From Planctomycetota bacterium (GTDB taxonomy: Bacteria > Planctomycetota > UBA1135 > UBA2386), in contig JADJPQ010000004.1 in the NCBI GenBank assembly GCA_016713175.1, positions 372,278-436,277 of the forward strand: DNA of 64,000 nucleotides, read 5' to 3'. The position numbers and the translations under genes were made by a program. Shown here piece after piece: positions 18,510 to 27,089 of the stretch (position 1 is the stretch's first letter; each line of letters opens with the position of its first letter). The notes beneath the pieces are model-generated. The model searched no databases, had not been told where the DNA came from, and was given only the letters and a program-made list of their open reading frames with translations.

Positions 18510-18959
18510 TCAGCGCGACAGGCGCGCCAGCACTCTTTGCCAATAGCGTTCGGTCTGCGGCCGGGTCGGGCCCGACGGTCCGCCGTTGTGGGTGCGGGCG
18601 ATGATCTCGGCGTCACCGATCGCCCAGGCACCGGGAACGTAGCGTTCCATGTAGGCGGTGAGGACCCGTTCGGCGTAACTGCGATCGCGACAGTCCTGGT
18701 AGGTGCCGCCGAGGTGCTTGCGGAAGGCGGTGGCGTCGCGCCAGTAGACTTCGTGGATCTGGTACGGGCCGATGGCGCGGCCGTCGTCGCCATCGGGAGG
18801 GTTTGGTCGGTCGCCGCTCTCGACGAAGCGGATGGCGGCGAGGATCTGGTCGCGGGGCCAGGTGGGGTGGGGGCGGGTGCTGCAGCGATGGATGGTCAGC
18901 AGGATCGCGATGACGACGCCGGTAGCGGCGAAAACGTGTTCCAGGCGCAGACGTCGCAT
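18510..18959 (-). CDS. Small membrane-anchored protein with a destabilase/i-type-lysozyme-like motif
   Basis: Signal-anchor VFAATGVVIAILLTI followed by AIRFVESGDRPNPPDGDDGRAIGPYQIHEVYWRDA and NGGPSG, reminiscent of invertebrate-type lysozyme/destabilase domains. Start chosen at MRRLRLEH, because the track ORF begins 119 codons earlier in an Arg-rich non-protein-like region. Confidence 0.4.
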   Translation of the reverse strand: MRRLRLEHVFAATGVVIAILLTIHRCSTRPHPTWPRDQILAAIRFVESGDRPNPPDGDDGRAIGPYQIHEVYWRDATAFRKHLGGTYQDCRDRSYAERVLTAYMERYVPGAWAIGDAEIIARTHNGGPSGPTRPQTERYWQRVLARLSR

Positions 18960-19045: not shown

Positions 19046-20335
19046 TCAGCGGATCAGGATCGACAGGGCGTCGCTGAACGCGAAACCGAACGCATTGACT
19101 CCGGACGAGGTGGCTCCTTGGGCAAACACTAGCATGCCTGCCAGTGCGGGATCGGCAGGGACGGGAATCGGGAAGCGATCGCGGCCATTGCTGTCGGCGA
19201 CACCGACAAACGACACGTCCGGTGAAGCCCACAGGGCACATCCAGGGGCGCCAACCTGTGCGCCCAGAAACGGCAGAGCCCAGCCGGACCACGCGGCATC
19301 GCTTGTGCCAAGCCAAAACACCGAGAGTGAGCCCGCCTGGAGTTGTCGCAGAGTCAGCTGGAACGTCTGTCCAGGCCGTGGCAGCCCAGAAGAACCCATG
19401 CGCGGCTCGAGGCCAGCGCTGGTCACGCAGCCGCGCCCATACGACTCGAAGGGGCGCGGCGCCGCGGCGACAAGCGCTATCTGGACGCCACTACCAAAGG
19501 CGATCAGATGCCAGGCACTGCCGGGGACCTTTCGCCACAACGAGAGATAGGTGCTCCACGGCGCTGCGGCCAGTTCGGATGTCCACGGATCGATGACGAC
19601 ACTGCCGCCGCCGGTGGCGAACGCAGGGTCGCTCGGGGCAACCTCGGTCGCAAGAACGGCGCCCGAGTCGATGTCGATGCGGAGCACGCTGGTATGATCG
19701 AGAATCAGCAGGTCGCGATCGGCGCCCAGGGAAATAGTCGGTCCAATGCGTGGCTGGTGAGCCTGCGGCAGCACCAACAGTGGCCGGAACACCGGCCCCG
19801 CGGGCACGAAATCGACTGCCCACACGTGCGCAGGGTTCGTGACCGTGACGTCGACTGCGAAGAACACTTCACGCCCGTCCGTCGCAAGGCCGGACACGCG
19901 GCCAGTCAGACCCAGTGTCGCCAACATGCCATTGTGCATCAGCATCGCGGGGCCGATCCCCTGCTTGGGTGTGAAGCCGAGTTCGCCTTGGATCCCTATT
20001 TGCCAGATCGCGTGACGCGCCGCGGCGATGTGTCGTCCGGTGAACGGTAGCGACGGCAGGCTCGAGCCAGGTGCGAACGCCCGGGATGTCGGGTCGAACC
20101 AGAGTTGATCGACTGAACTCCGATCTGCGTAAATGTAGCCATCGCCACCGGACGCAAGGGAGATCGCGCCGGCCGGGTCACTTCCAAGCAGGCGGCCGTC
20201 CGGCGCGAACACCAAGATGTAGTTCACGCCACCGGCCACCCAGCCCGTCGAGGGGAGCTGCGTCGAACCCGCAACGGCCAACCCTGCGACAGCCAAGGCG
20301 CACTTACACAGAGCTGTCAACGAGGCCGGTATCAT
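19046..20335 (-). CDS. Hypothetical secreted protein
   Basis: Signal peptide MIPASLTALCKCALAVAGLAVAG. Start codon overlaps the upstream gene stop (ATGA). Gly/Ser/Pro-rich beta-type composition. No recognisable catalytic motif. Confidence 0.5.
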   Translation of the reverse strand: MIPASLTALCKCALAVAGLAVAGSTQLPSTGWVAGGVNYILVFAPDGRLLGSDPAGAISLASGGDGYIYADRSSVDQLWFDPTSRAFAPGSSLPSLPFTGRHIAAARHAIWQIGIQGELGFTPKQGIGPAMLMHNGMLATLGLTGRVSGLATDGREVFFAVDVTVTNPAHVWAVDFVPAGPVFRPLLVLPQAHQPRIGPTISLGADRDLLILDHTSVLRIDIDSGAVLATEVAPSDPAFATGGGSVVIDPWTSELAAAPWSTYLSLWRKVPGSAWHLIAFGSGVQIALVAAAPRPFESYGRGCVTSAGLEPRMGSSGLPRPGQTFQLTLRQLQAGSLSVFWLGTSDAAWSGWALPFLGAQVGAPGCALWASPDVSFVGVADSNGRDRFPIPVPADPALAGMLVFAQGATSSGVNAFGFAFSDALSILIR

Positions 20336-22239
20336 GGACATATCCCTATCCAAGCACCGCGCGAGGCGGCGGCGATTCCGGTCTCTTCGTATACGCCCCC
20401 TGGCTGTTTCCGGAACTCCTCGACGATCATCTGCGCGTACCAGATCGGTTGCTGGGGCGGTAGGTTCAGCACGAACACATCGTCGCCCATGCTGTTCGTG
20501 ATAGTGCCGGTCAGCGTCGAAGTCAAGTCAATGTTCAGCGTAATCCCAGTCAGGGATGGGTGCGGCGCGGCGGTTTGTGGAGGAGTTGGTGTAATGTGCA
20601 GAGTCCAGACACAGTTGAGGTGGCTATAGAGATGCCTGTTCCCGTCTCGGACCACGAATGGGTGCCCTACTCTCGGGGGCCCATAGGGGGCGATGATTCT
20701 TGGGTGGGCGCCTGCTGGGTGCGCGGTGCCGGCGCCGAACGGCGTGGCGCTCCAGAACCGATTGAATCGGCCACGATTGACACGGAACACGAACCCGTTC
20801 TCGCGGCCTGCGCTGGCCAAGACGAAGCCTGAATCACTTGCAGTCGACACATCCCAGATCCCCAAGAACCTCTCCCAAGCGTACATGGTGCCGCTGGAGC
20901 CATCGAGTGTCGTCGTGTCAAAGCTGGCTAAGACTGACATCGGGACTGAAGGATTTGATAGGTCTACTTGATCAATTCCATCCATCTGGTGGGCTATGTA
21001 TCCGGTTCTGCCGTCGGCCCGCAAATGATGTGCAACCGATGGTTGGACGGAAGCTGTCGGGTAGTTTGGGTTGTCAGGTATCATTGAGACGAGCGAGCCT
21101 GTCTGCGCAAGCGATGGCAGCTGAATTGTCAGTGGTATTGCGGGTATGTTGGGAAAATTGACTTGCGAAATGTTGACGGCGTCAATATTGCGGAACGGCG
21201 ACTCTTGTAGGATCCACATCGTCGCCGGCGATACGGACTCATCGACCCAAACCGAATGCGGCGCCGCAGCGAAGAGGGGGTACGTTGGGGTCGCGCCAAG
21301 GACTGATGGAGGGAGCAGCGGTGCGACCGGAGGTGGGACCACATGACGTCTAGGTCGCCATTGCCCCGGGTTTGACAGTGATAGCTGCGCCAAGTCCAGT
21401 ATTGTGACTTGGCGTCCAACCCAATCACATGCGTAGAGTCGATTGTTGAAAATCATGCTGTCGTGGATGCTAACGGGCTGCCACAAGTCTGACGAACCGG
21501 ATGTCCAGGTATGAAGAGCGGTTGGGGTCGAAGGGTTGATGAGCGATAGCAGATAAACGTCGTGGAGCGCCGTCTGAATGAAAAGCAGTGACCGGCTCGA
21601 GTCAATCGTAATAGTGTGGCAAAAACTAGGTAGGGCCATCCAGGAGTTCGCTACATGGGCGAGGGTGTTCTGTGTTCCTGCACGCTGGAGCTCGATTATC
21701 CAAAGACCGGGTCGAAGGTTGTTAATGGCGTACAGGAATGTGCGTTGCGACGGGCCGTGAAAGTGCGCGACGATCTCTCGATTTGTGCATAGGTTGGAGT
21801 CGATTGGGACCGGACCCTGGCAGTAGGGTGTCGCTCCGTTCAGGGCAGCCTGGAGGGCAGGGTTGCTCACTGGGATTGGGGCTTCCGCCACAAATATTGG
21901 CGTTGGTGGAGTCAGGCTCTGAAGATGGACGTTGGCGGGAACTGCGACTCTCGGGGCCGTGACATCGACCACCATGACTCCGTTGTTGCGGCCAAGCGCC
22001 AGGTACTCGCGATCATCGTTTGGATCCGCTGGATTCAGTGGGTCGGCGAAAGCCGCTAGGCCGGACGTCCAAGGATAAGGGCAAGGTCCTGGGGCGGGCA
22101 CGGGTGCCTGATAGATTATGGAAAAAGTGCCATCTCCTGAGCTTCCCGCCAAATGGCCGGGCGGGTTCGTCGCTGGTCCATTCTGTCCCAGGGCTAGTCC
22201 AGCAAGCAGATGCACCGCGAGTATGAAGAGCGATCTCAT
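20332..22239 (-). CDS. Hypothetical secreted protein (636 aa), encoded in a lower-GC segment
   Basis: Signal peptide MRSLFILAVHLLAGLALG. The coding region is visibly less GC-rich than its surroundings, with relaxed third-position GC. No recognisable domain by eye. Translationally coupled to the downstream gene. Confidence 0.5.
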   Translation of the reverse strand: MRSLFILAVHLLAGLALGQNGPATNPPGHLAGSSGDGTFSIIYQAPVPAPGPCPYPWTSGLAAFADPLNPADPNDDREYLALGRNNGVMVVDVTAPRVAVPANVHLQSLTPPTPIFVAEAPIPVSNPALQAALNGATPYCQGPVPIDSNLCTNREIVAHFHGPSQRTFLYAINNLRPGLWIIELQRAGTQNTLAHVANSWMALPSFCHTITIDSSRSLLFIQTALHDVYLLSLINPSTPTALHTWTSGSSDLWQPVSIHDSMIFNNRLYACDWVGRQVTILDLAQLSLSNPGQWRPRRHVVPPPVAPLLPPSVLGATPTYPLFAAAPHSVWVDESVSPATMWILQESPFRNIDAVNISQVNFPNIPAIPLTIQLPSLAQTGSLVSMIPDNPNYPTASVQPSVAHHLRADGRTGYIAHQMDGIDQVDLSNPSVPMSVLASFDTTTLDGSSGTMYAWERFLGIWDVSTASDSGFVLASAGRENGFVFRVNRGRFNRFWSATPFGAGTAHPAGAHPRIIAPYGPPRVGHPFVVRDGNRHLYSHLNCVWTLHITPTPPQTAAPHPSLTGITLNIDLTSTLTGTITNSMGDDVFVLNLPPQQPIWYAQMIVEEFRKQPGGVYEETGIAAASRGAWIGICP

Positions 22240-22374
22240 CGAGGCGAACTCTAGTGAACGGTTCGTCAACCGGTCAACTCCCGGCGAACCGGAGCGCGAT
22301 TGCGGTAGAGCGGAATGAGAAGCCATTCGTGACAGCCTCAAAGCACGTTGCGGCGTTAGGTTGGGTTCCAGTCG

Positions 22375-22565
22375 GTTCCGCACCACCAGGAAGTCCGGCG
22401 ATCACCAACCCCGTGCCGACGATCGTCGCTGCATCGATCTTCCCATCGCCGACCGCGACTCCGAGCAGCGTCGCCAGCACCGGCGTCACCAACGAGATTA
22501 GACTCAACTCGCCGGCCGGCTGGTGCCGCAAGAGCCAGAAGTCGGCTGCCAGCGCCCTGGCCATT
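22375..22565 (-). repeat. Decayed direct copy (copy A) of the 3' ~200 nt of the EamA transporter gene (24679–24900)
   Basis: Direct nucleotide comparison: the ccaccagg..gatcaccaaccccgtgccgacgatcgtcgc..cgccgaccgc..gagcagcgtcgccagcaccggcgtcac block is shared with the 24.7 kb gene end. It encodes the fragment LISLVTPVLATLLGVAVGDGKIDAATIVGTGLVIAG. Confidence 0.75.
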
Positions 22566-22583
22566 GGAGCAAGGAAGCGGTGT

Positions 22584-22880
22584 TCAGCCCTTCGGCTCCC
22601 GCGCCACCAGACAGACTCCGGCGATCACCAACCCGTGCCGACAATCGTCACCGCATCGATCTTCCGATCTTCCCATCACCGACCGCGACCCCGAGCAACG
22701 TCGCCAGCACCGGCGTCACATACGAAATCAGGCTCAGCTTCCCCGCCGGCATGTACCGCAACAGCCAGAAACAGGTCGAGAACGCGAACCCCGTGCCGAT
22801 CAGCGCGAGCAACGCCATCGACATGACACCCTGCGTCATCCAAACCTCCGGCTGCCAGCCCGCGCGCAGCAGCGGGTGGC
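22584..22880 (-). repeat. Decayed direct copy (copy B) of the 3' ~285 nt of the EamA transporter gene (24679–24962)
   Basis: About 85–90% nucleotide identity to the EamA gene end, with a small internal duplication (gatcttccgatcttcc). It encodes FAFSTCFWLLRYMPAGKLSLISYVTPVLATLLGVAVGDGK. Confidence 0.8.
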
Positions 22881-22887
22881 CAAGGCG

Positions 22888-24024
22888 TCATCGCTCGGGG
22901 ATCACCCCAAACTCCCGCGCATCTTCAACGACCCAGGTCCGGCCGGCCCGATGCAACGTGCCCATGCAGCGGACGACGGCGCCGGTCCGGTGCGCAGTGA
23001 TCGCGGCCTGGTAGTCGTTGCCATCGAGCGCGATGGCGACGTGCCTCCAGCCAGTGTCGACTTCCGTGTGCACGATGGCGGTGCCGCCAACGGCGGCCGC
23101 TGTGCTGTCGAGTCGGACGACGTGACCCTTCACTTCGAAACTGACGTAGGTTGCGGCCTCGCGGAGACCCGTCGCGGCTTCGCGCAGCTGGCCGGCGACG
23201 TCGGCGCTGAACACGACGCTGCCGGGGGTGGGGTCGAGGTTGGGGCGTTGCGTGGCGAACGAGAAGGAGGCGCGCAGTGTTTCGGCCTCGGTCGCGTCGA
23301 AGACCTCGGCGATGGCGTCGCAGAGGTTGGCGTTGACGCCTTGACCGATCCGGCGGCGGAACGGCTCGAGCGTCGCCTCGGCTGCCGCTTCGCGGCTGGC
23401 ATCGCCGACGCCGCTCAGTGCGTGGGCCAGGCGAACACAGGCCAGACGTTCCAGGGGTTCGTGGCCGATGTCCTCGGTCGTCGTGTCGTCGAGCAAGCGC
23501 TGCGGAACCTCGCATTCGATCGTGAGCACGAAGCTGCCGACCTCCGGCTGCCCGAACCTGGCGCGCCGGATCAGGTCCATCGCCTCGGCCGTTTTTCGGC
23601 GGGGGAACGATGCGCGCGGCTCCCGCACCGAGCAAGCTGCCGAAAGCAGCATGTCGCGGGCGGCCTCGTAGACCCGGTGGCCCGCTTCGACGGAGATTCG
23701 GCCATCTCGAGTGATCCGGCTTTCGATGCCCAACCGGACGACGTCCAGCGAGCAAGCCCGGATGTCGCTCAGGATGGGCGTGGGAGGTCGTTCTTCGAAC
23801 CTGGCCAGGTCGGCCAGCAGCAGGTCCACGGCGCGAGAGTAGCCGCCGCCATGCGCCTGCATCGGGATCTCGAGATCGAGGATCGCACCGCCGCGTGACA
23901 AGGTCGCGGTCGCCCAGGTGGCAGCCGAGCTCGTGATCGTCCAGCCGCGGCTGCGCAGATACGCGACGATCTGGCCCGGCGTCGGTACGGCGACGCGATG
24001 CGGCACCCACACGAACGGGCTCAC
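22888..24024 (-). CDS. Hypothetical protein (378 aa), unknown function, in the islet between the EamA 3'-end copies
   Basis: Long ORF with protein-like composition and no TM or signal. No motif recognised. Lies about 100 nt downstream of the PD-(D/E)xK-like small ORF in a different frame. Confidence 0.45.
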   Translation of the reverse strand: MSPFVWVPHRVAVPTPGQIVAYLRSRGWTITSSAATWATATLSRGGAILDLEIPMQAHGGGYSRAVDLLLADLARFEERPPTPILSDIRACSLDVVRLGIESRITRDGRISVEAGHRVYEAARDMLLSAACSVREPRASFPRRKTAEAMDLIRRARFGQPEVGSFVLTIECEVPQRLLDDTTTEDIGHEPLERLACVRLAHALSGVGDASREAAAEATLEPFRRRIGQGVNANLCDAIAEVFDATEAETLRASFSFATQRPNLDPTPGSVVFSADVAGQLREAATGLREAATYVSFEVKGHVVRLDSTAAAVGGTAIVHTEVDTGWRHVAIALDGNDYQAAITAHRTGAVVRCMGTLHRAGRTWVVEDAREFGVIPER

Positions 24025-24121
24025 GGGGCGTCTCCCTGGTCAATGCGGTTCATCAGGATCTGCAGGTTCGTCGGGTGGAAGCAGTTGGCCTGCGGTATGT
24101 GGACACGAACTGTAGCAGTGT

Positions 24122-24529
24122 TCAGCGACGCCGGCATGCCTCGCAGGGAGCGCCAGTAGCCGCAGTGCCGCAGTGCCGCAGTACCAGTTCTGCCGCCGTG
24201 GCGGAGGCCCAATTCGCGCGCTCGGCCGGCAGCGCGACGACGACGAGGATCCGTGGCGGGATCGCGGTGTCGTCGCGGAGTTCGTCGTAGTTCTTGATTC
24301 CCAGGTCGAAAGGGAAGGGGTCTTGGGTGATCGGCTGGGTCGTGGCCTTCAGTTGCAGTTCGAGCCGTGGCCCCCTCGTCGACCCGCTCGGTGATCTCGC
24401 GAAGAGCACCGCGTCGACGCCGTCGGCGTCCATCATTCGGTTGCTTTCTTGAACGAAGTAGCCTGCGGCGTGGGCGACTGCCCGAACGTAGGCGTGACTG
24501 AATTCCGACTTCAGGTCGTTGGAGGTCAT
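24122..24529 (-). CDS. Small protein with a PD-(D/E)xK nuclease-like N-terminal module (DUF4365-like by recollection), possibly a fragment
   Basis: MTSNDLKSEFSHAYVRAVAHAAGYFVQESNRMMDADGVDAVLFAR...RLELQLKATT follows the E..a.a..g...D.GiD...(E/Q)xK pattern of restriction-endonuclease-like folds. Only 135 aa, so it may be the N-terminal piece of a frameshifted larger gene that continues into 22888..24024. Confidence 0.35.
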   Translation of the reverse strand: MTSNDLKSEFSHAYVRAVAHAAGYFVQESNRMMDADGVDAVLFARSPSGSTRGPRLELQLKATTQPITQDPFPFDLGIKNYDELRDDTAIPPRILVVVALPAERANWASATAAELVLRHCGTAATGAPCEACRRR

Positions 24530-24675
24530 GTTGCGGCGAGCGCGTTGCAACGCGAACAGGCGGCGGGTGGCGCAAGGTGGCAGGGGGCGCGCAGGTCCTT
24601 CTTCGAGCCCCAAGACCGTTGTGCATGGTAGCTGCAGGGTCGCCGACTGCCAGCAATCTGACCGAGCGAGTGGTC

Positions 24676-25551
24676 TTAGCCCTTCGGCTTCCGAACCACC
24701 AGGCAGACCCCCGCGATCACCAACCCCGTGCCGACGATCGTCGCTCCATCGAGCTTGCCATCGCCGACCGCAACCCCGAGCAGCGTCGCCAGCACCGGCG
24801 TCACATACGAAATCAGGCTCAGCTTCCCCGCCGGCATGTGCCGTAACAGCCAGAAGTAGGTCGAGAACGCGAACACCGTGCCGACCAGCGCCAGGGCCGC
24901 CATCGACACGACACCCTGCGTCGTCCAGACCTCCGGGCGCCAGCCTTCGCGGAGCAGCGCCGCACCGCCGAGCAGCACCGCGCCGAGCACCATGCCGTTC
25001 CGGTTCAGCACGATCGAACTGGTCTTGCTGCCGTGTTTCTTGATCAGCACCGTGCCGACCGCCGACACGATTGGCGAGCCGAGCAGCAGCAGCGCCATCG
25101 GCAGCGCTTCCGGACCAACCCCGAGATCGCCGGAGAACATCGCGACGATGCCGCTGAACGACAGCAGAAGGCCGCCGGTCTGTCGCCGCGATAGCGTCTC
25201 GCCAAGCCACACCGTGCCCGCGATCGCCATCAAGACCGGAAAGATCGCCCACAGCACCGCAGCGACACCGGAGGGGACCACCGTCTCGGCGACATACAGG
25301 ATCCCGTACGAACCGGCGAAATTGGTGACGGCGGCGGTGACCCACAGCCAGGTCGGTGGCGGCGGCGCGCCCTCGAGGCGCCGCAGCGTCGGCGTGATGA
25401 CGATCATCACCAGACCCGCGAGCGCAAAGCGCGCGCCGGCGGCGGTCAGCGGCAGTTCTTGTGGTCCGAGCCGGATGCCGAGCCAGGTGCTGCCCCAGAT
25501 CAGGCACAGCACGGCGATCAGCAGCGGTCGCAACCAGGCAGGTCCGTTCAT
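24676..25551 (-). CDS. EamA/DMT-family (drug/metabolite exporter) 10-TM transporter
   Basis: Two EamA repeats. The C-terminal segment FAFSTYFWLLRHMPAGKLSLISYVTPVLATLLGVAVGDGKLDGATIVGTGLVIAG is typical of the family. Start at MNGPAWLRPLL, forming an ATGA overlap with the upstream aldehyde dehydrogenase-like gene. Confidence 0.8.
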   Translation of the reverse strand: MNGPAWLRPLLIAVLCLIWGSTWLGIRLGPQELPLTAAGARFALAGLVMIVITPTLRRLEGAPPPPTWLWVTAAVTNFAGSYGILYVAETVVPSGVAAVLWAIFPVLMAIAGTVWLGETLSRRQTGGLLLSFSGIVAMFSGDLGVGPEALPMALLLLGSPIVSAVGTVLIKKHGSKTSSIVLNRNGMVLGAVLLGGAALLREGWRPEVWTTQGVVSMAALALVGTVFAFSTYFWLLRHMPAGKLSLISYVTPVLATLLGVAVGDGKLDGATIVGTGLVIAGVCLVVRKPKG

Positions 25552-27089
25552 GGGCGCAATCCGTGGGCGAGCACCGGCAGCAGCCGGAGGCGGGAGCCCG
25601 TGGCGTAGAAGGTCGCGAGCGCGCGCAGGGTGTCGAGGCCGCGGCGATGCCACGGGAACTGCGGCGGCAATGGGCTTGGGATCGGCGGTCCGCGCAGGAT
25701 CACCTGATCGACCGGCAACAGCGCGACGCGCGGTCCATGCACGAAGCCGCGACCGGACCCGCGCGCATCGTCGATGGCGTGTTCGCCGCCGAACGCACCC
25801 CACGGCGTGTTCATCAGCGCATAGCTGAGCCCTGGGTTGGCGTTGATGGCCACGGTGCCCTTCCGCAGCGCGCGCGCGGCGCGTTCGAGATGCGGTTGGT
25901 CGGTGGCGCGGAGCGTGGATGGCACCGCAAGCTGCGCCGCGAGCGTGCCGAGGCAGTCATTGGCCAGGCTCGTGGCCGCACCCAGGAACGACGCGACATC
26001 GTCACCGGGCAGCGGCACCTCGAGCAGCACCGGCGCGAAGCGTTCGGCCATCAGGTGCGTGGCATCGCGGCTGGCTGAGCCGTCGGTGCGCAACAGGCCG
26101 GGCAAGCGCCCATCGGCGGGAACGGGCCGTTCGGCAGCCGCCTCGAACCAGGTCGCCGCCGCCGGATAGAATGGTCGGCGCGGCGGCAGTTCGGCCAGCG
26201 TCACCTGGATCCGGTCGAGGAACGCGCGCCGCTGCGGCCAGCTGCTGGCGGTCAGCAGCACCCTCGGCGTCACGCAGTTGCAGCCGGCATTGAAGAGCAG
26301 TTGGGCCGCGAGGGCACGCGCCTGCCAGTCGAGTTCGCGTTCGGGCCAGTTGCCGGGTAGCACGATGACCGGCGTGACGTTGCCGAGTTCGGCGGTCCAG
26401 CGCTTGTTGGCGAGATGCGGACCGGCGCGGAGCGCAGCAGCGGTGGCATGACTGCCGGTCAGATGCACGGCGGCGATCCTGGTGTCACCGGCAAGCGCCT
26501 GACCGAGTCCGGCGTCGCCGACGCGGAAGGACAGATGGCGTTGGGTCACCAGCGGCGCGAACGCGCGCTCGAGGATCGGTTGCAGGGAGGCGTGCAGCGG
26601 GCTCAGCTTGCAGAGCACGGCCTGGCCATGCACGAACAGCGCATGCAGCGCATCGGCGACCGGCATGCTGCTGACATTGCCGGCGCCGAGCACCAACGTG
26701 ATGCCGGGCGGCGGTCGGTGCGTCGCCGGGCGATGACCGAAGAGCGCATCGGCCCGATGGCCAGCGAACAACCAGCGATCGGCGAACGCCGGGTCGGGAA
26801 ACAACTGCAGCGAACGGCCGGCCGGCGTCATCGCGATCGGCGGTGCGTCCAGGCAGCGCAGCAGCCGCAGGACCGGCAGCGGACCGGTGGCCCATTCTTC
26901 GGTCAGGATCGTCCGATCGTCGGCGCCGTGCTTTCTGGCGGCGGCGGCGGCGACCCATTCGTCGGCGGCGGCATGGACGCTGCGGCGGCAGGCGGCAAGC
27001 AACTGGCGACGTGCGGCGGCATCGCCGGGTGGCGGTTGCAGCGCAGAGAGCGCAGCGTCGACCTCGACGGGCAGCGGGGCGGGCGGCAC
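25548..27089 (-). CDS. Aldehyde dehydrogenase superfamily-like protein
   Basis: ALDH-like blocks: GAGNVSSMP (cofactor loop), ELGNVTPVIV (catalytic Glu region) and NAGCNCVTPR (catalytic Cys region). Overall length is 513 aa. Confidence 0.55.
   Translation of the reverse strand: MPPAPLPVEVDAALSALQPPPGDAAARRQLLAACRRSVHAAADEWVAAAAARKHGADDRTILTEEWATGPLPVLRLLRCLDAPPIAMTPAGRSLQLFPDPAFADRWLFAGHRADALFGHRPATHRPPPGITLVLGAGNVSSMPVADALHALFVHGQAVLCKLSPLHASLQPILERAFAPLVTQRHLSFRVGDAGLGQALAGDTRIAAVHLTGSHATAAALRAGPHLANKRWTAELGNVTPVIVLPGNWPERELDWQARALAAQLLFNAGCNCVTPRVLLTASSWPQRRAFLDRIQVTLAELPPRRPFYPAAATWFEAAAERPVPADGRLPGLLRTDGSASRDATHLMAERFAPVLLEVPLPGDDVASFLGAATSLANDCLGTLAAQLAVPSTLRATDQPHLERAARALRKGTVAINANPGLSYALMNTPWGAFGGEHAIDDARGSGRGFVHGPRVALLPVDQVILRGPPIPSPLPPQFPWHRRGLDTLRALATFYATGSRLRLLPVLAHGLRP

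What the first reader, a model, noticed from the sequence alone, without database searches (positions are those of the whole stretch)
22240..24700. Tandem triplication of the EamA gene 3' end flanking a small cargo islet: footprint of repeated site-specific integration into a protein-coding gene
The intact EamA transporter gene ends at 24676. Two further direct copies of its last 200–290 nt lie at 22584–22880 and 22375–22565. They are progressively more decayed and still encode recognisable LISLVTPVLATLLGVAVGDGK peptide fragments. This layout is what results when integrative elements insert into the 3' end of a target gene while carrying a replacement gene end, and then do so again. Here the target is a protein-coding gene, not a tRNA, and no integrase remains. 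The 1.8 kb segment between copy C and copy B carries only two genes: a 135-aa PD-(D/E)xK nuclease-like ORF and a 378-aa ORF with no recognisable motifs. Copies B and A are separated by only about 20 nt. This suggests deletion of an intervening element, or that the low-GC operon beyond copy A was the cargo. Small nuclease-like plus unknown-partner islets sitting at integration hotspots are a common context for anti-phage and other accessory modules. The pair is therefore a candidate uncharacterised two-gene system, or a decayed one.
Basis: seen in the sequence. Interest (0 to 1): 0.75.

Follow-up and report, generated by a model that had tools for sequence, protein, structure and literature searches.

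The report
Decayed defence-gene insertion in EamA gene end
A planctomycete transporter gene is followed by two broken extra copies of its own last 200–300 bases and a 1.8-kb insert holding an already-catalogued but untested candidate anti-phage gene pair, now frameshifted; this looks like an old insertion scar of a familiar kind, not a new system.

Summary
The EamA gene (24676–25551, minus strand) has two extra direct copies of its 3' end: B at 22576–22874 and A at 22372–22545. Both are about 85% identical to the intact end by BLASTN (86–88% by ungapped column counts) and both carry indels. All three homology blocks stop at the stop codon.

The 1.8 kb between the intact end and copy B holds two genes. 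PADLOC already lists them as the untested candidate defence system PDC-M02: a DUF4365 PD-(D/E)xK nuclease (M02A) and a 378-aa partner (M02B). The partner's AlphaFold model ends in an OB fold.

The 135-aa nuclease ORF is a pseudogene. An 8-nt unit is present three times instead of twice. Removing one unit restores a 166-aa protein that overlaps M02B by 4 nt, as in all homologues examined. The two ORFs do not fuse.

In the five loci that keep a destabilase homologue, all among the closer EamA relatives (50–59% identity), EamA is directly followed by the destabilase gene. Here the two are about 5.7 kb apart.

No integrase, transposase or tRNA was found in the 64-kb window. No close relative exists in public data.

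The best reading is a decayed, recombinase-less remnant of successive insertions that each brought a replacement gene end. The mechanism is inferred, not shown.

The parts
25548..27089 (-). Aldehyde-dehydrogenase-like gene directly upstream of EamA; serves as a synteny anchor
   Evidence: Pfam Aldedh 6.9e-13. The same gene precedes EamA in L006.
24676..25551 (-). Intact EamA/DMT transporter gene (291 aa)
   Evidence: Pfam EamA 2.2e-33. Identical to NCBI protein P0049. ATG at 25551.
24669..24959 (-). Copy C: the working 3' end of EamA, i.e. the segment that is repeated
   Evidence: BLASTN against the window. Homology ends 7 nt past the stop codon.
24530..24668 (-). 139-nt non-coding spacer between the EamA stop and the M02A start; the left end of the islet
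   Evidence: Read from the sequence. No significant similarity to the sequence after copies B or A.
24021..24529 (-). PDC-M02A: DUF4365 PD-(D/E)xK nuclease gene, frameshifted pseudogene (135-aa ORF ends at 24122; the remainder is in another frame down to 24021)
   Evidence: As it stands: Pfam DUF4365 4.4e-15, profile positions 2–106 of 139. Repaired: 4.1e-21, positions 2–138 of 139. PADLOC PDC-M02A 1.6e-52. Alignment with 166–195-aa homologues.
24159..24182 (-). ACTGCGGC present three times in tandem; two copies give the intact reading frame
   Evidence: The same three units are in Logan contig L001.
22888..24024 (-). PDC-M02B: intact 378-aa partner protein; its GTG start overlaps the restored M02A stop (GTGA)
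   Evidence: PADLOC PDC-M02B 1.1e-91. 48 homologues of 251–394 aa, most of them 371–394 aa. Retains every invariant column of a 42-sequence alignment. AF2 model pLDDT 87.7. C-terminal OB fold.
22576..22874 (-). Copy B: displaced EamA 3' end (last ~285 nt plus stop), pseudogene fragment starting about 12 nt after the M02B stop
   Evidence: 85% over 300 columns, E 1e-93. 8-nt duplication and 1-nt deletion.
22372..22545 (-). Copy A: older and shorter EamA 3' end fragment, 10–30 nt downstream of copy B
   Evidence: 85% over 177 columns, E 8e-52. Indels.
20332..22239 (-). p684: 635-aa predicted secreted protein, GC 58% against 68% for the window; part of the extra DNA between EamA and destabilase
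   Evidence: GC. Only two homologues, 41–42% identical, in unrelated contexts. Weak LVIVD hit.
19046..20353 (-). p435: 435-aa predicted secreted protein with no Pfam family; also lies between EamA and destabilase
   Evidence: Its C-terminal domain weakly resembles ORFs near EamA in L020 and L008.
18510..18959 (-). Destabilase-like (i-type lysozyme) gene; EamA's conserved immediate downstream neighbour in related genomes
   Evidence: Pfam Destabilase 3.1e-7. Homologues of 59–65% identity begin 93–183 nt after EamA in L002, L004, L006, L009 and L013. Fused to EamA in P0135 and P0152.

Best explanation
This locus is an old, recombinase-less scar of at least two successive insertions of circular DNA into the 3' end of the EamA gene.

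Each incoming element carried its own copy of the gene's last ~200–300 nt up to the stop codon. The gene therefore stayed intact, and the previous end was pushed downstream as a dead fragment: first A, then B.

The last insertion brought a compact 1.8-kb cassette made of a 139-nt leader, M02A, M02B and about 12 nt. This cassette is the PADLOC candidate defence system PDC-M02.

Of the earlier element only 10–30 nt remain between B and A, which implies a deletion that also trimmed A.

Inferred way the pair works:
- M02A is a DUF4365 PD-(D/E)xK nuclease. This domain is the collateral DNase effector of SPARDA short-Argonaute systems.
- M02B is made with it through translational coupling, and probably acts as its sensor or regulator through a C-terminal OB fold.
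- On infection the nuclease would be released or activated to degrade DNA.

In this genome the system is most likely dead, because a +8-nt slippage duplication truncates M02A.

Shown: the repeats, their boundaries, the identity of the two genes, the frameshift, and the conserved EamA–destabilase adjacency elsewhere.
Inferred: the recombination mechanism (integrase acting in trans or since lost), the order of events, and the defence mechanism.
For: 1. There are three direct copies (E 1e-93 and 8e-52), and no others in the window.
2. Every copy's homology stops within -8 to +7 nt of the stop codon, and the flanks beyond are unrelated. That is expected for an element-borne replacement gene end. 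A random duplication gives no reason for it.
3. The DNA between C and B is filled almost entirely by an accessory module that is mobile elsewhere. It occurs embedded in type I R-M loci, on plasmids and on IMG/VR viral contigs, and has PHROG hits.
4. In the five loci that keep a destabilase homologue (EamA 50–59% identical), EamA is directly followed by destabilase. Some proteins are EamA–destabilase fusions. Here the two genes are ~5.7 kb apart.
5. None of 80 other EamA loci has an extra copy of its own gene end, so this is not a family-wide internal duplication.
6. In the B and A lineages 6/10 and 8/15 substitutions are synonymous. This is more than neutral decay predicts and fits each copy having once been the working end. 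The evidence is weak.
7. PADLOC hits PDC-M02A/B. The D39…Q59-x-K61 motif is intact, matching active-site residues Q62/K64 of the SPARDA DUF4365 nuclease (PMC10810196). M02B has an OB fold.
8. The framework of decayed elements that keep their att sites but have lost their integrase (CIMEs), and of tandem accretion at gene 3' ends, is established (PMC5704250).
Against: - No integrase, resolvase or transposase family was found anywhere in the 64-kb window.
- No tRNA or Rfam RNA was found.
- No element carrying this gene end turned up in JGI metagenome or IMG/VR contigs.
- Apart from the MAG itself, the closest EamA in 5.8 billion proteins is 63% identical. No empty or alternatively filled site can therefore be shown at nucleotide level.
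- The p684–p435 block is not bounded by a further EamA copy, so at least that insertion needs another route.
- PDC-M02 pairs elsewhere have no flanking repeats.
- The excess of synonymous changes could partly reflect C>T bias at GC-rich third positions.
- PDC-M02 has never been shown experimentally to defend (bioRxiv 10.1101/2024.01.29.577857).
Confidence: 0.55

Rival explanations
1. The structure is the same, but it arose by RecA-dependent single-crossover (Campbell-type) homologous recombination. A circular DNA carrying an EamA 3' fragment plus the M02 pair would have recombined with the resident gene, for example a circle excised from a sister strain by recombination between such repeats. 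No dedicated integrase would ever have been involved.
For: No recombinase gene was found in 64 kb. The three copies are far closer to each other (84–89% nt) than to any other EamA known (at most 63% aa), so the donors were close kin with enough homology. The repeat lengths of 175–290 nt are adequate for RecA.
Against: Homologous recombination gives no reason for all three homology blocks to end at the stop codon. The present 12–15% divergence would have to have built up after insertion while M02B stayed fully intact. It does not explain how the first repeat-flanked unit arose.
Confidence: 0.15
2. Local rearrangement. The EamA 3' end, or whole EamA paralogues, was duplicated in tandem by slippage or unequal crossing-over and then eroded by deletions. 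The M02 pair and the p684–p435 block were inserted independently into this variable intergenic zone.
For: B and A lie head-to-tail only 10–30 nt apart, as in a tandem duplication. The locus shows slippage elsewhere, with two separate +8-nt duplications. The region downstream of EamA varies among planctomycetes, e.g. a p435-like ORF in L020.
Against: It needs more events: two duplications, deletions, and an insertion that happens to fill exactly the gap between two copies. The copy lengths differ (about 290 vs about 175 nt). The flanks after the stop codon are not co-duplicated. There are 12–15% three-way differences in a star-like pattern.
Confidence: 0.15
3. Assembly or sequencing artefact. 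The repeats or the frameshift would come from a mis-assembled MAG.
For: The source is a metagenome-assembled genome (NCBI 'MAG: Planctomycetes bacterium'). One homopolymer difference to a short-read contig exists at about 21843.
Against: The copies differ by 12–15% and by indels, so they are not collapsed or duplicated reads. Logan short-read contigs reproduce 24742–22725 at 100%, including the three 8-nt units, and 22427–18526 at 99.97%.
Confidence: 0.02

Closest known systems
PADLOC phage defence candidate PDC-M02 (Payne et al., 'New antiviral defences are genetically embedded within prokaryotic immune systems', bioRxiv 10.1101/2024.01.29.577857)
   Same: Both proteins hit the PDC-M02A and PDC-M02B HMMs full length (1.6e-52 and 1.1e-91). 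The gene order, strand and 4-nt overlap match the homologous pairs. Those pairs are often embedded between hsdM/hsdS and hsdR of type I R-M loci.
   Different: Here the pair is not embedded in another defence system. It sits alone after a transporter gene, flanked by copies of that gene's end. M02A is frameshifted. The candidate system itself is untested.
Decayed integrative elements (CIMEs, cis-mobilizable elements) and tandem accretion at the 3' end of a target gene, as described for streptococcal ICE/IME families (review PMC5704250). From my own knowledge, the classical cases are phage 21 and e14 in the E. coli icd gene, which carry a replacement gene end.
   Same: Direct repeats consist of the target gene's 3' end. 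The gene is kept intact by an element-borne end. Three att-like copies lie in tandem. Cargo is present without integration or transfer genes.
   Different: No cognate integrase or parent element is known. The cassette is only 1.8 kb. The middle 'element' is reduced to 10–30 nt. The host is an uncultured planctomycete with no close relatives. Excision was not tested.
SPARDA (short prokaryotic Argonaute with DUF4365/DREN nuclease-APAZ effector; PMC10810196, PMC12205087, bioRxiv 10.1101/2023.06.08.544223)
   Same: M02A is a stand-alone DUF4365 PD-(D/E)xK domain. It carries the QxK motif whose equivalent (Q62/K64) was mutated to inactivate TmuRE. In SPARDA this domain is a sensor-activated, non-specific DNase.
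   Different: There is no Argonaute and no APAZ domain. The partner is an unrelated 378-aa protein with an OB fold. Activation and substrate are unknown.
Integron gene cassettes
   Same: A compact unit with a short leader, flush against a recombination-site-like repeat, carrying a defence candidate.
   Different: No attC-like imperfect palindrome follows M02B; only about 12 nt lie between its stop and copy B. No IntI or attI is present. The repeat is a gene end.

Membership tests
PADLOC PDC-M02 candidate defence system | Protein matching the PDC-M02A HMMs (DUF4365 nuclease) | tested here: met
   The repaired 166-aa product scores 1.6e-52 over positions 1–165 of 167. The ORF as it stands is truncated to 135 aa.
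PADLOC PDC-M02 candidate defence system | Protein matching the PDC-M02B HMMs | tested here: met
   1.1e-91 over positions 15–376 of 380.
PADLOC PDC-M02 candidate defence system | Both genes adjacent, on the same strand, and intact | tested here: inconclusive
   The genes are adjacent and co-oriented with a GTGA overlap once repaired. However, M02A carries a +8-nt frameshift, so the system is probably non-functional here.
PADLOC PDC-M02 candidate defence system | Protection against phage | not testable with these tools
   PDC systems are stated to be untested candidates.
Site-specific integrative element remnant (CIME-like) with tandem accretion | Cargo flanked by direct repeats made of the 3' end of the target gene, with the gene reconstituted | tested here: met
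   Copies C and B flank the islet. EamA is intact. Homology ends at the stop codon.
Site-specific integrative element remnant (CIME-like) with tandem accretion | Three or more att-like copies in tandem | tested here: met
   Copies C, B and A.
Site-specific integrative element remnant (CIME-like) with tandem accretion | A cognate tyrosine or serine recombinase, in cis or in a related element using the same site | tested here: not met
   None in the 64-kb window. No element with this gene end in metagenome or viral collections. The rest of the genome could not be examined.
Site-specific integrative element remnant (CIME-like) with tandem accretion | Empty or differently occupied site in related genomes | tested here: inconclusive
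   Five distant relatives (50–59% aa identity) have EamA directly followed by destabilase. No close relative exists for a nucleotide-level empty site.
Site-specific integrative element remnant (CIME-like) with tandem accretion | Excision or circularisation at the repeats | not testable with these tools
   This needs raw reads or an experiment.
Integron cassette | attC site after the cassette ORF and an IntI/attI platform | tested here: not met
   Only about 12 nt separate the M02B stop from copy B. No notable inverted repeat lies there. No integrase is present.
SPARDA | Short pAgo plus an APAZ domain fused to the DUF4365 nuclease | tested here: not met
   M02A is DUF4365 only. M02B has no Pfam hit and no Argonaute-like fold.

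The most novel reading that the evidence does not exclude
The 2-kb unit (gene-end repeat plus leader plus M02A plus M02B) may be a minimal defence cassette without an integrase that still moves. It would excise and re-insert through its own EamA-end repeat, using a recombinase encoded elsewhere or RecA, among a narrow clade of planctomycetes. The 8-nt repeat in the nuclease gene (2 vs 3 units) would then act as a slippage ON/OFF switch for a potentially self-toxic effector rather than being a dead-end mutation.
Probability: 0.07. Interest if true: 0.6.

Novelty: new member of a known kind. Interest (0 to 1): 0.3.

Why it matters
It shows a catalogued but untested candidate defence pair (PDC-M02) outside its usual setting inside R-M operons. 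Here it was delivered as a very small cassette into the end of a housekeeping-type transporter gene, in a poorly sampled planctomycete lineage.

The analysis adds a structural hint about the partner protein (a C-terminal OB fold and an N-terminal small α/β domain). It also shows that the nuclease is the same domain that SPARDA uses as a collateral DNase. Together these give a testable model for PDC-M02.

The locus itself is a decayed scar and is unlikely to teach a new principle.

Tried and rejected
- **Merging the two ORFs by a frameshift.** Rejected. The repair restores a separate 166-aa DUF4365 protein.
- **Fourth EamA-end copy bounding the low-GC block.** None found by BLASTN, Smith-Waterman with shuffles, or relaxed TBLASTN.
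- **Empty site in close relatives.** The 5.8-billion-protein search gave at most 63%. An exact look-up of the EamA protein is not on record.
- **Exact 29-nt core shared by all three copies.** Zero hits in JGI metagenome contigs and in IMG/VR.
- **Recurrent hotspot test.** None of 80 other EamA loci carries an extra copy of its own 3' end.
- **Flanking repeats as a property of PDC-M02.** No repeats lie around the pair in eight other loci.
- **Homology beyond the stop codons.** Only a marginal 20-nt match, reached by 35 of 500 shuffles.
- **Codon-position and synonymous tests to separate horizontal origin from in-situ decay.** They lean towards past function of B and A, but the samples are too small and are confounded by GC3 and C>T bias.
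- **Whole-chain structural relatives of M02B.** None found, only domain-level OB-fold hits. The afdb50 library was unavailable.
- **Cultured phage genomes.** No M02B homologue.
- **Literature search for 'PDC-M02'.** No paper found.


Full report
**Observation**

The window is high-GC (68%) chromosomal DNA. It comes from an uncultured planctomycete: the 378-aa protein and the EamA protein are identical to NCBI entries from 'MAG: Planctomycetes bacterium' on a 700,437-bp contig.

On the minus strand, EamA (24676–25551, 291 aa, Pfam EamA 2.2e-33) ends with TAA at 24676. BLASTN of the gene against the whole window gives exactly two further matches:
- Copy B, 22576–22874: 85% over 300 columns, E 1e-93.
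- Copy A, 22372–22545: 85% over 177 columns, E 8e-52.

A more sensitive alignment with shuffled controls and a relaxed TBLASTN found no fourth copy. B carries an 8-nt tandem duplication and a 1-nt deletion. A carries several indels and is shorter.

Two short-read contigs from run SRR11674035 match the window. One matches 24742–22725 at 100% and the other matches 22427–18526 at 99.97%. Both break inside the repeats, as expected for a real repeat.

**Anatomy of the repeats**

In all three copies homology stops at the gene's stop codon. For C/B it ends 7 nt after the stop. For A it ends 8 nt before the end of the stop codon. The sequences further downstream are unrelated, apart from a marginal 20-nt match that 35 of 500 shuffles also reach.

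Upstream, C/B homology starts about 285 nt before the stop, and B begins only about 12 nt after the M02B stop codon. A begins 10–30 nt after B ends.

Within the 171 nt shared by all three, identities are 88.8% (C–B), 86.4% (C–A) and 84.5% (B–A). The pattern is star-like, with 8, 11 and 15 lineage-specific differences for C, B and A.

When the differences that fall in gap-free codons are polarised by majority rule:
- The C lineage has 6 synonymous of 8 changes.
- The B lineage has 6 of 10, and 7 of the 10 are C>T.
- The A lineage has 8 of 15.

This is somewhat more synonymous than neutral decay predicts. It fits B and A having each served as the working gene end for a time. However, the numbers are small and GC-rich third positions bias the test, so I treat this as weak support only.

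**The cargo**

The 135-aa ORF (24122–24529) is DUF4365, but it matches only profile positions 2–106 of 139. At 24159–24182 the unit ACTGCGGC occurs three times in tandem. Deleting one unit gives a 166-aa protein that matches DUF4365 end to end (4.1e-21). Its TGA overlaps the GTG start of the 378-aa gene.

The repaired protein aligns over its full length with the 166–195-aa homologues that precede M02B homologues elsewhere, including the conserved LVLRHCGYW.SLRG stretch across the repair point. The nuclease gene is therefore a frameshifted pseudogene.

Both proteins hit PADLOC models full length: PDC-M02A at 1.6e-52 and PDC-M02B at 1.1e-91. PDC systems are 145 untested 'phage defence candidates' predicted by guilt-by-embedding (bioRxiv 10.1101/2024.01.29.577857).

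The contexts I retrieved agree with that origin:
- The pair sits between hsdM/hsdS and hsdR of type I R-M loci, beside Abi_C, YhcG and RhuM genes, always with a 4-nt overlap.
- It also occurs between an IMS-family (Y-family) DNA polymerase gene and a YqeY-family gene.
- It occurs on four IMG/VR contigs.
- M02B homologues occur on ten plasmids.
- PHROG families exist for both proteins.

The M02B family is large and uniform. A profile search gave 5,484 representatives at E ≤ 1e-3, and the best 150 listed are nearly all about 360–400 aa. It has no Pfam or NCBIfam model.

**Likely function of the pair**

DUF4365 is the PD-(D/E)xK nuclease domain of SPARDA systems. There it degrades DNA non-specifically once the Argonaute sensor is triggered, and Q62/K64 are the residues mutated to inactivate it (PMC10810196). 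M02A keeps the matching D39…Q59-L-K61 motif.

My inference is that M02B is the sensor or regulator, possibly binding nucleic acid, and that M02A is the effector DNase. Translational coupling suggests they form a complex that acts by abortive infection or by degrading invader DNA. None of this is shown. In this genome the truncated M02A probably makes the system inactive, although M02B retains all invariant residues.

**Surroundings and a proxy for the empty site**

No integrase, resolvase or transposase family was detected in any sizeable ORF of the 64-kb window. No tRNA or Rfam RNA was found either.

The lineage is isolated. Apart from the MAG itself, the best EamA in 5.8 billion proteins is 63% identical, and the best M02B is 56% identical. 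A nucleotide-level empty site is therefore unobtainable.

Gene order still helps. The gene at 18510–18959 is a destabilase-like lysozyme. In five of the 80 related EamA loci (L002, L004, L006, L009, L013; EamA 50–59% identical), a destabilase homologue of 59–65% identity begins 93–183 nt after the EamA match on the same strand. In L006 the EamA stop and a possible destabilase start abut, and the aldehyde-dehydrogenase-like upstream neighbour is also conserved. Some database proteins are EamA–destabilase fusions.

In the window the two genes are about 5.7 kb apart. The interval holds the M02 pair, copies B and A, and two predicted secreted proteins:
- p684 has 58% GC and only two homologues anywhere, both in unrelated contexts.
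- p435 has no Pfam family.

The whole interval is therefore extra DNA relative to the conserved arrangement. One caveat is that L020 has a weakly p435-like ORF after its EamA. None of the 80 other EamA loci has a second copy of its own gene end, and PDC-M02 pairs elsewhere lack flanking repeats. The triplication is thus specific to this locus.

**Interpretation**

Three features together are the classical signature of elements that integrate into a gene's 3' end while carrying a replacement end:
- Gene-end repeats that stop at the stop codon.
- Accessory cargo that exactly fills the space between two of them.
- A conserved neighbour gene displaced downstream.

Decay of such elements into integrase-less, att-flanked remnants, and their accretion in tandem, is documented (PMC5704250). 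I rate this reading at about 0.55.

It cannot be separated here from RecA-mediated Campbell insertion of a circle carrying the gene end (0.15), or from local duplication plus independent insertion (0.15). An assembly artefact is essentially excluded.

The p684–p435 block lacks a bounding copy and probably arrived by another route, or its boundary has been lost.

**Verdict**

This is a real and well-defined feature. It is a decayed example of known phenomena that carries an already catalogued, untested candidate system whose nuclease gene is broken. It is of modest interest. The most useful products are the corrected gene model, the synteny-based evidence of insertion, and a structural lead for PDC-M02B.

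Noticed in passing
window 18510-18959 and 24676-25551; L002, L004, L006, L009, L013; proteins P0135, P0152: EamA/DMT transporter and a destabilase-like (i-type lysozyme, PF05497) gene form a conserved adjacent pair in Planctomycetota MAGs. In some proteins of 450–452 aa the two are fused. The functional link between a DMT permease and a lysozyme-like domain is unexplained.
   Followed up: partly
window 24159-24182 and about 22660-22675: Two independent +8-nt tandem duplications lie within 1.6 kb. ACTGCGGC x3 breaks M02A, and GGAAGATC x2 lies in EamA copy B. Both look like slippage at short pre-existing repeats.
   Followed up: partly
window 20332-22239 (p684); about 21843; L102: p684 is a 635-aa predicted secreted protein with 58% GC. 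It has only two homologues (41–42% identity) among 5.8 billion proteins. The Logan short-read contig has CC where the window has CCC at about 21843, which splits the ORF there. This is either strain heterogeneity or a homopolymer error in one assembly.
   Followed up: partly
window 22248-22277 (minus strand): The only sigma-70-like promoter match in 18.8–25.9 kb (TTGACC-18-TAGAGT) lies just upstream of the likely p684 start at 22239. One match against 0.5 expected is not significant.
   Followed up: no
L089 9543-11149 versus L090 5269-9841: The identical M02B protein (P0012) occurs once with its DUF4365 partner. It also occurs once directly after an NTase_sub_bind gene, with hsdS, Abi_C and M02A missing. 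This is an apparent deletion variant leaving an orphan M02B inside a type I R-M locus.
   Followed up: no
L020 2230-3768; L008 16827-17237: ORFs near EamA homologues in two other planctomycete MAGs share a C-terminal domain of about 130 aa with p435 (32–34% identity). The zone downstream of EamA may therefore be generally variable, or the domain may simply be common in secreted planctomycete proteins.
   Followed up: no
window, whole 64 kb: The window is otherwise ordinary planctomycete chromosome. It encodes aconitase, LigD primase-polymerase plus phosphoesterase, PSCyt2/PSD1 and DUF1501 pairs, Ser/Thr kinases, ECF sigma factors and peptidase S46. No mobile-element genes, tRNAs or Rfam RNAs were found.
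   Followed up: yes
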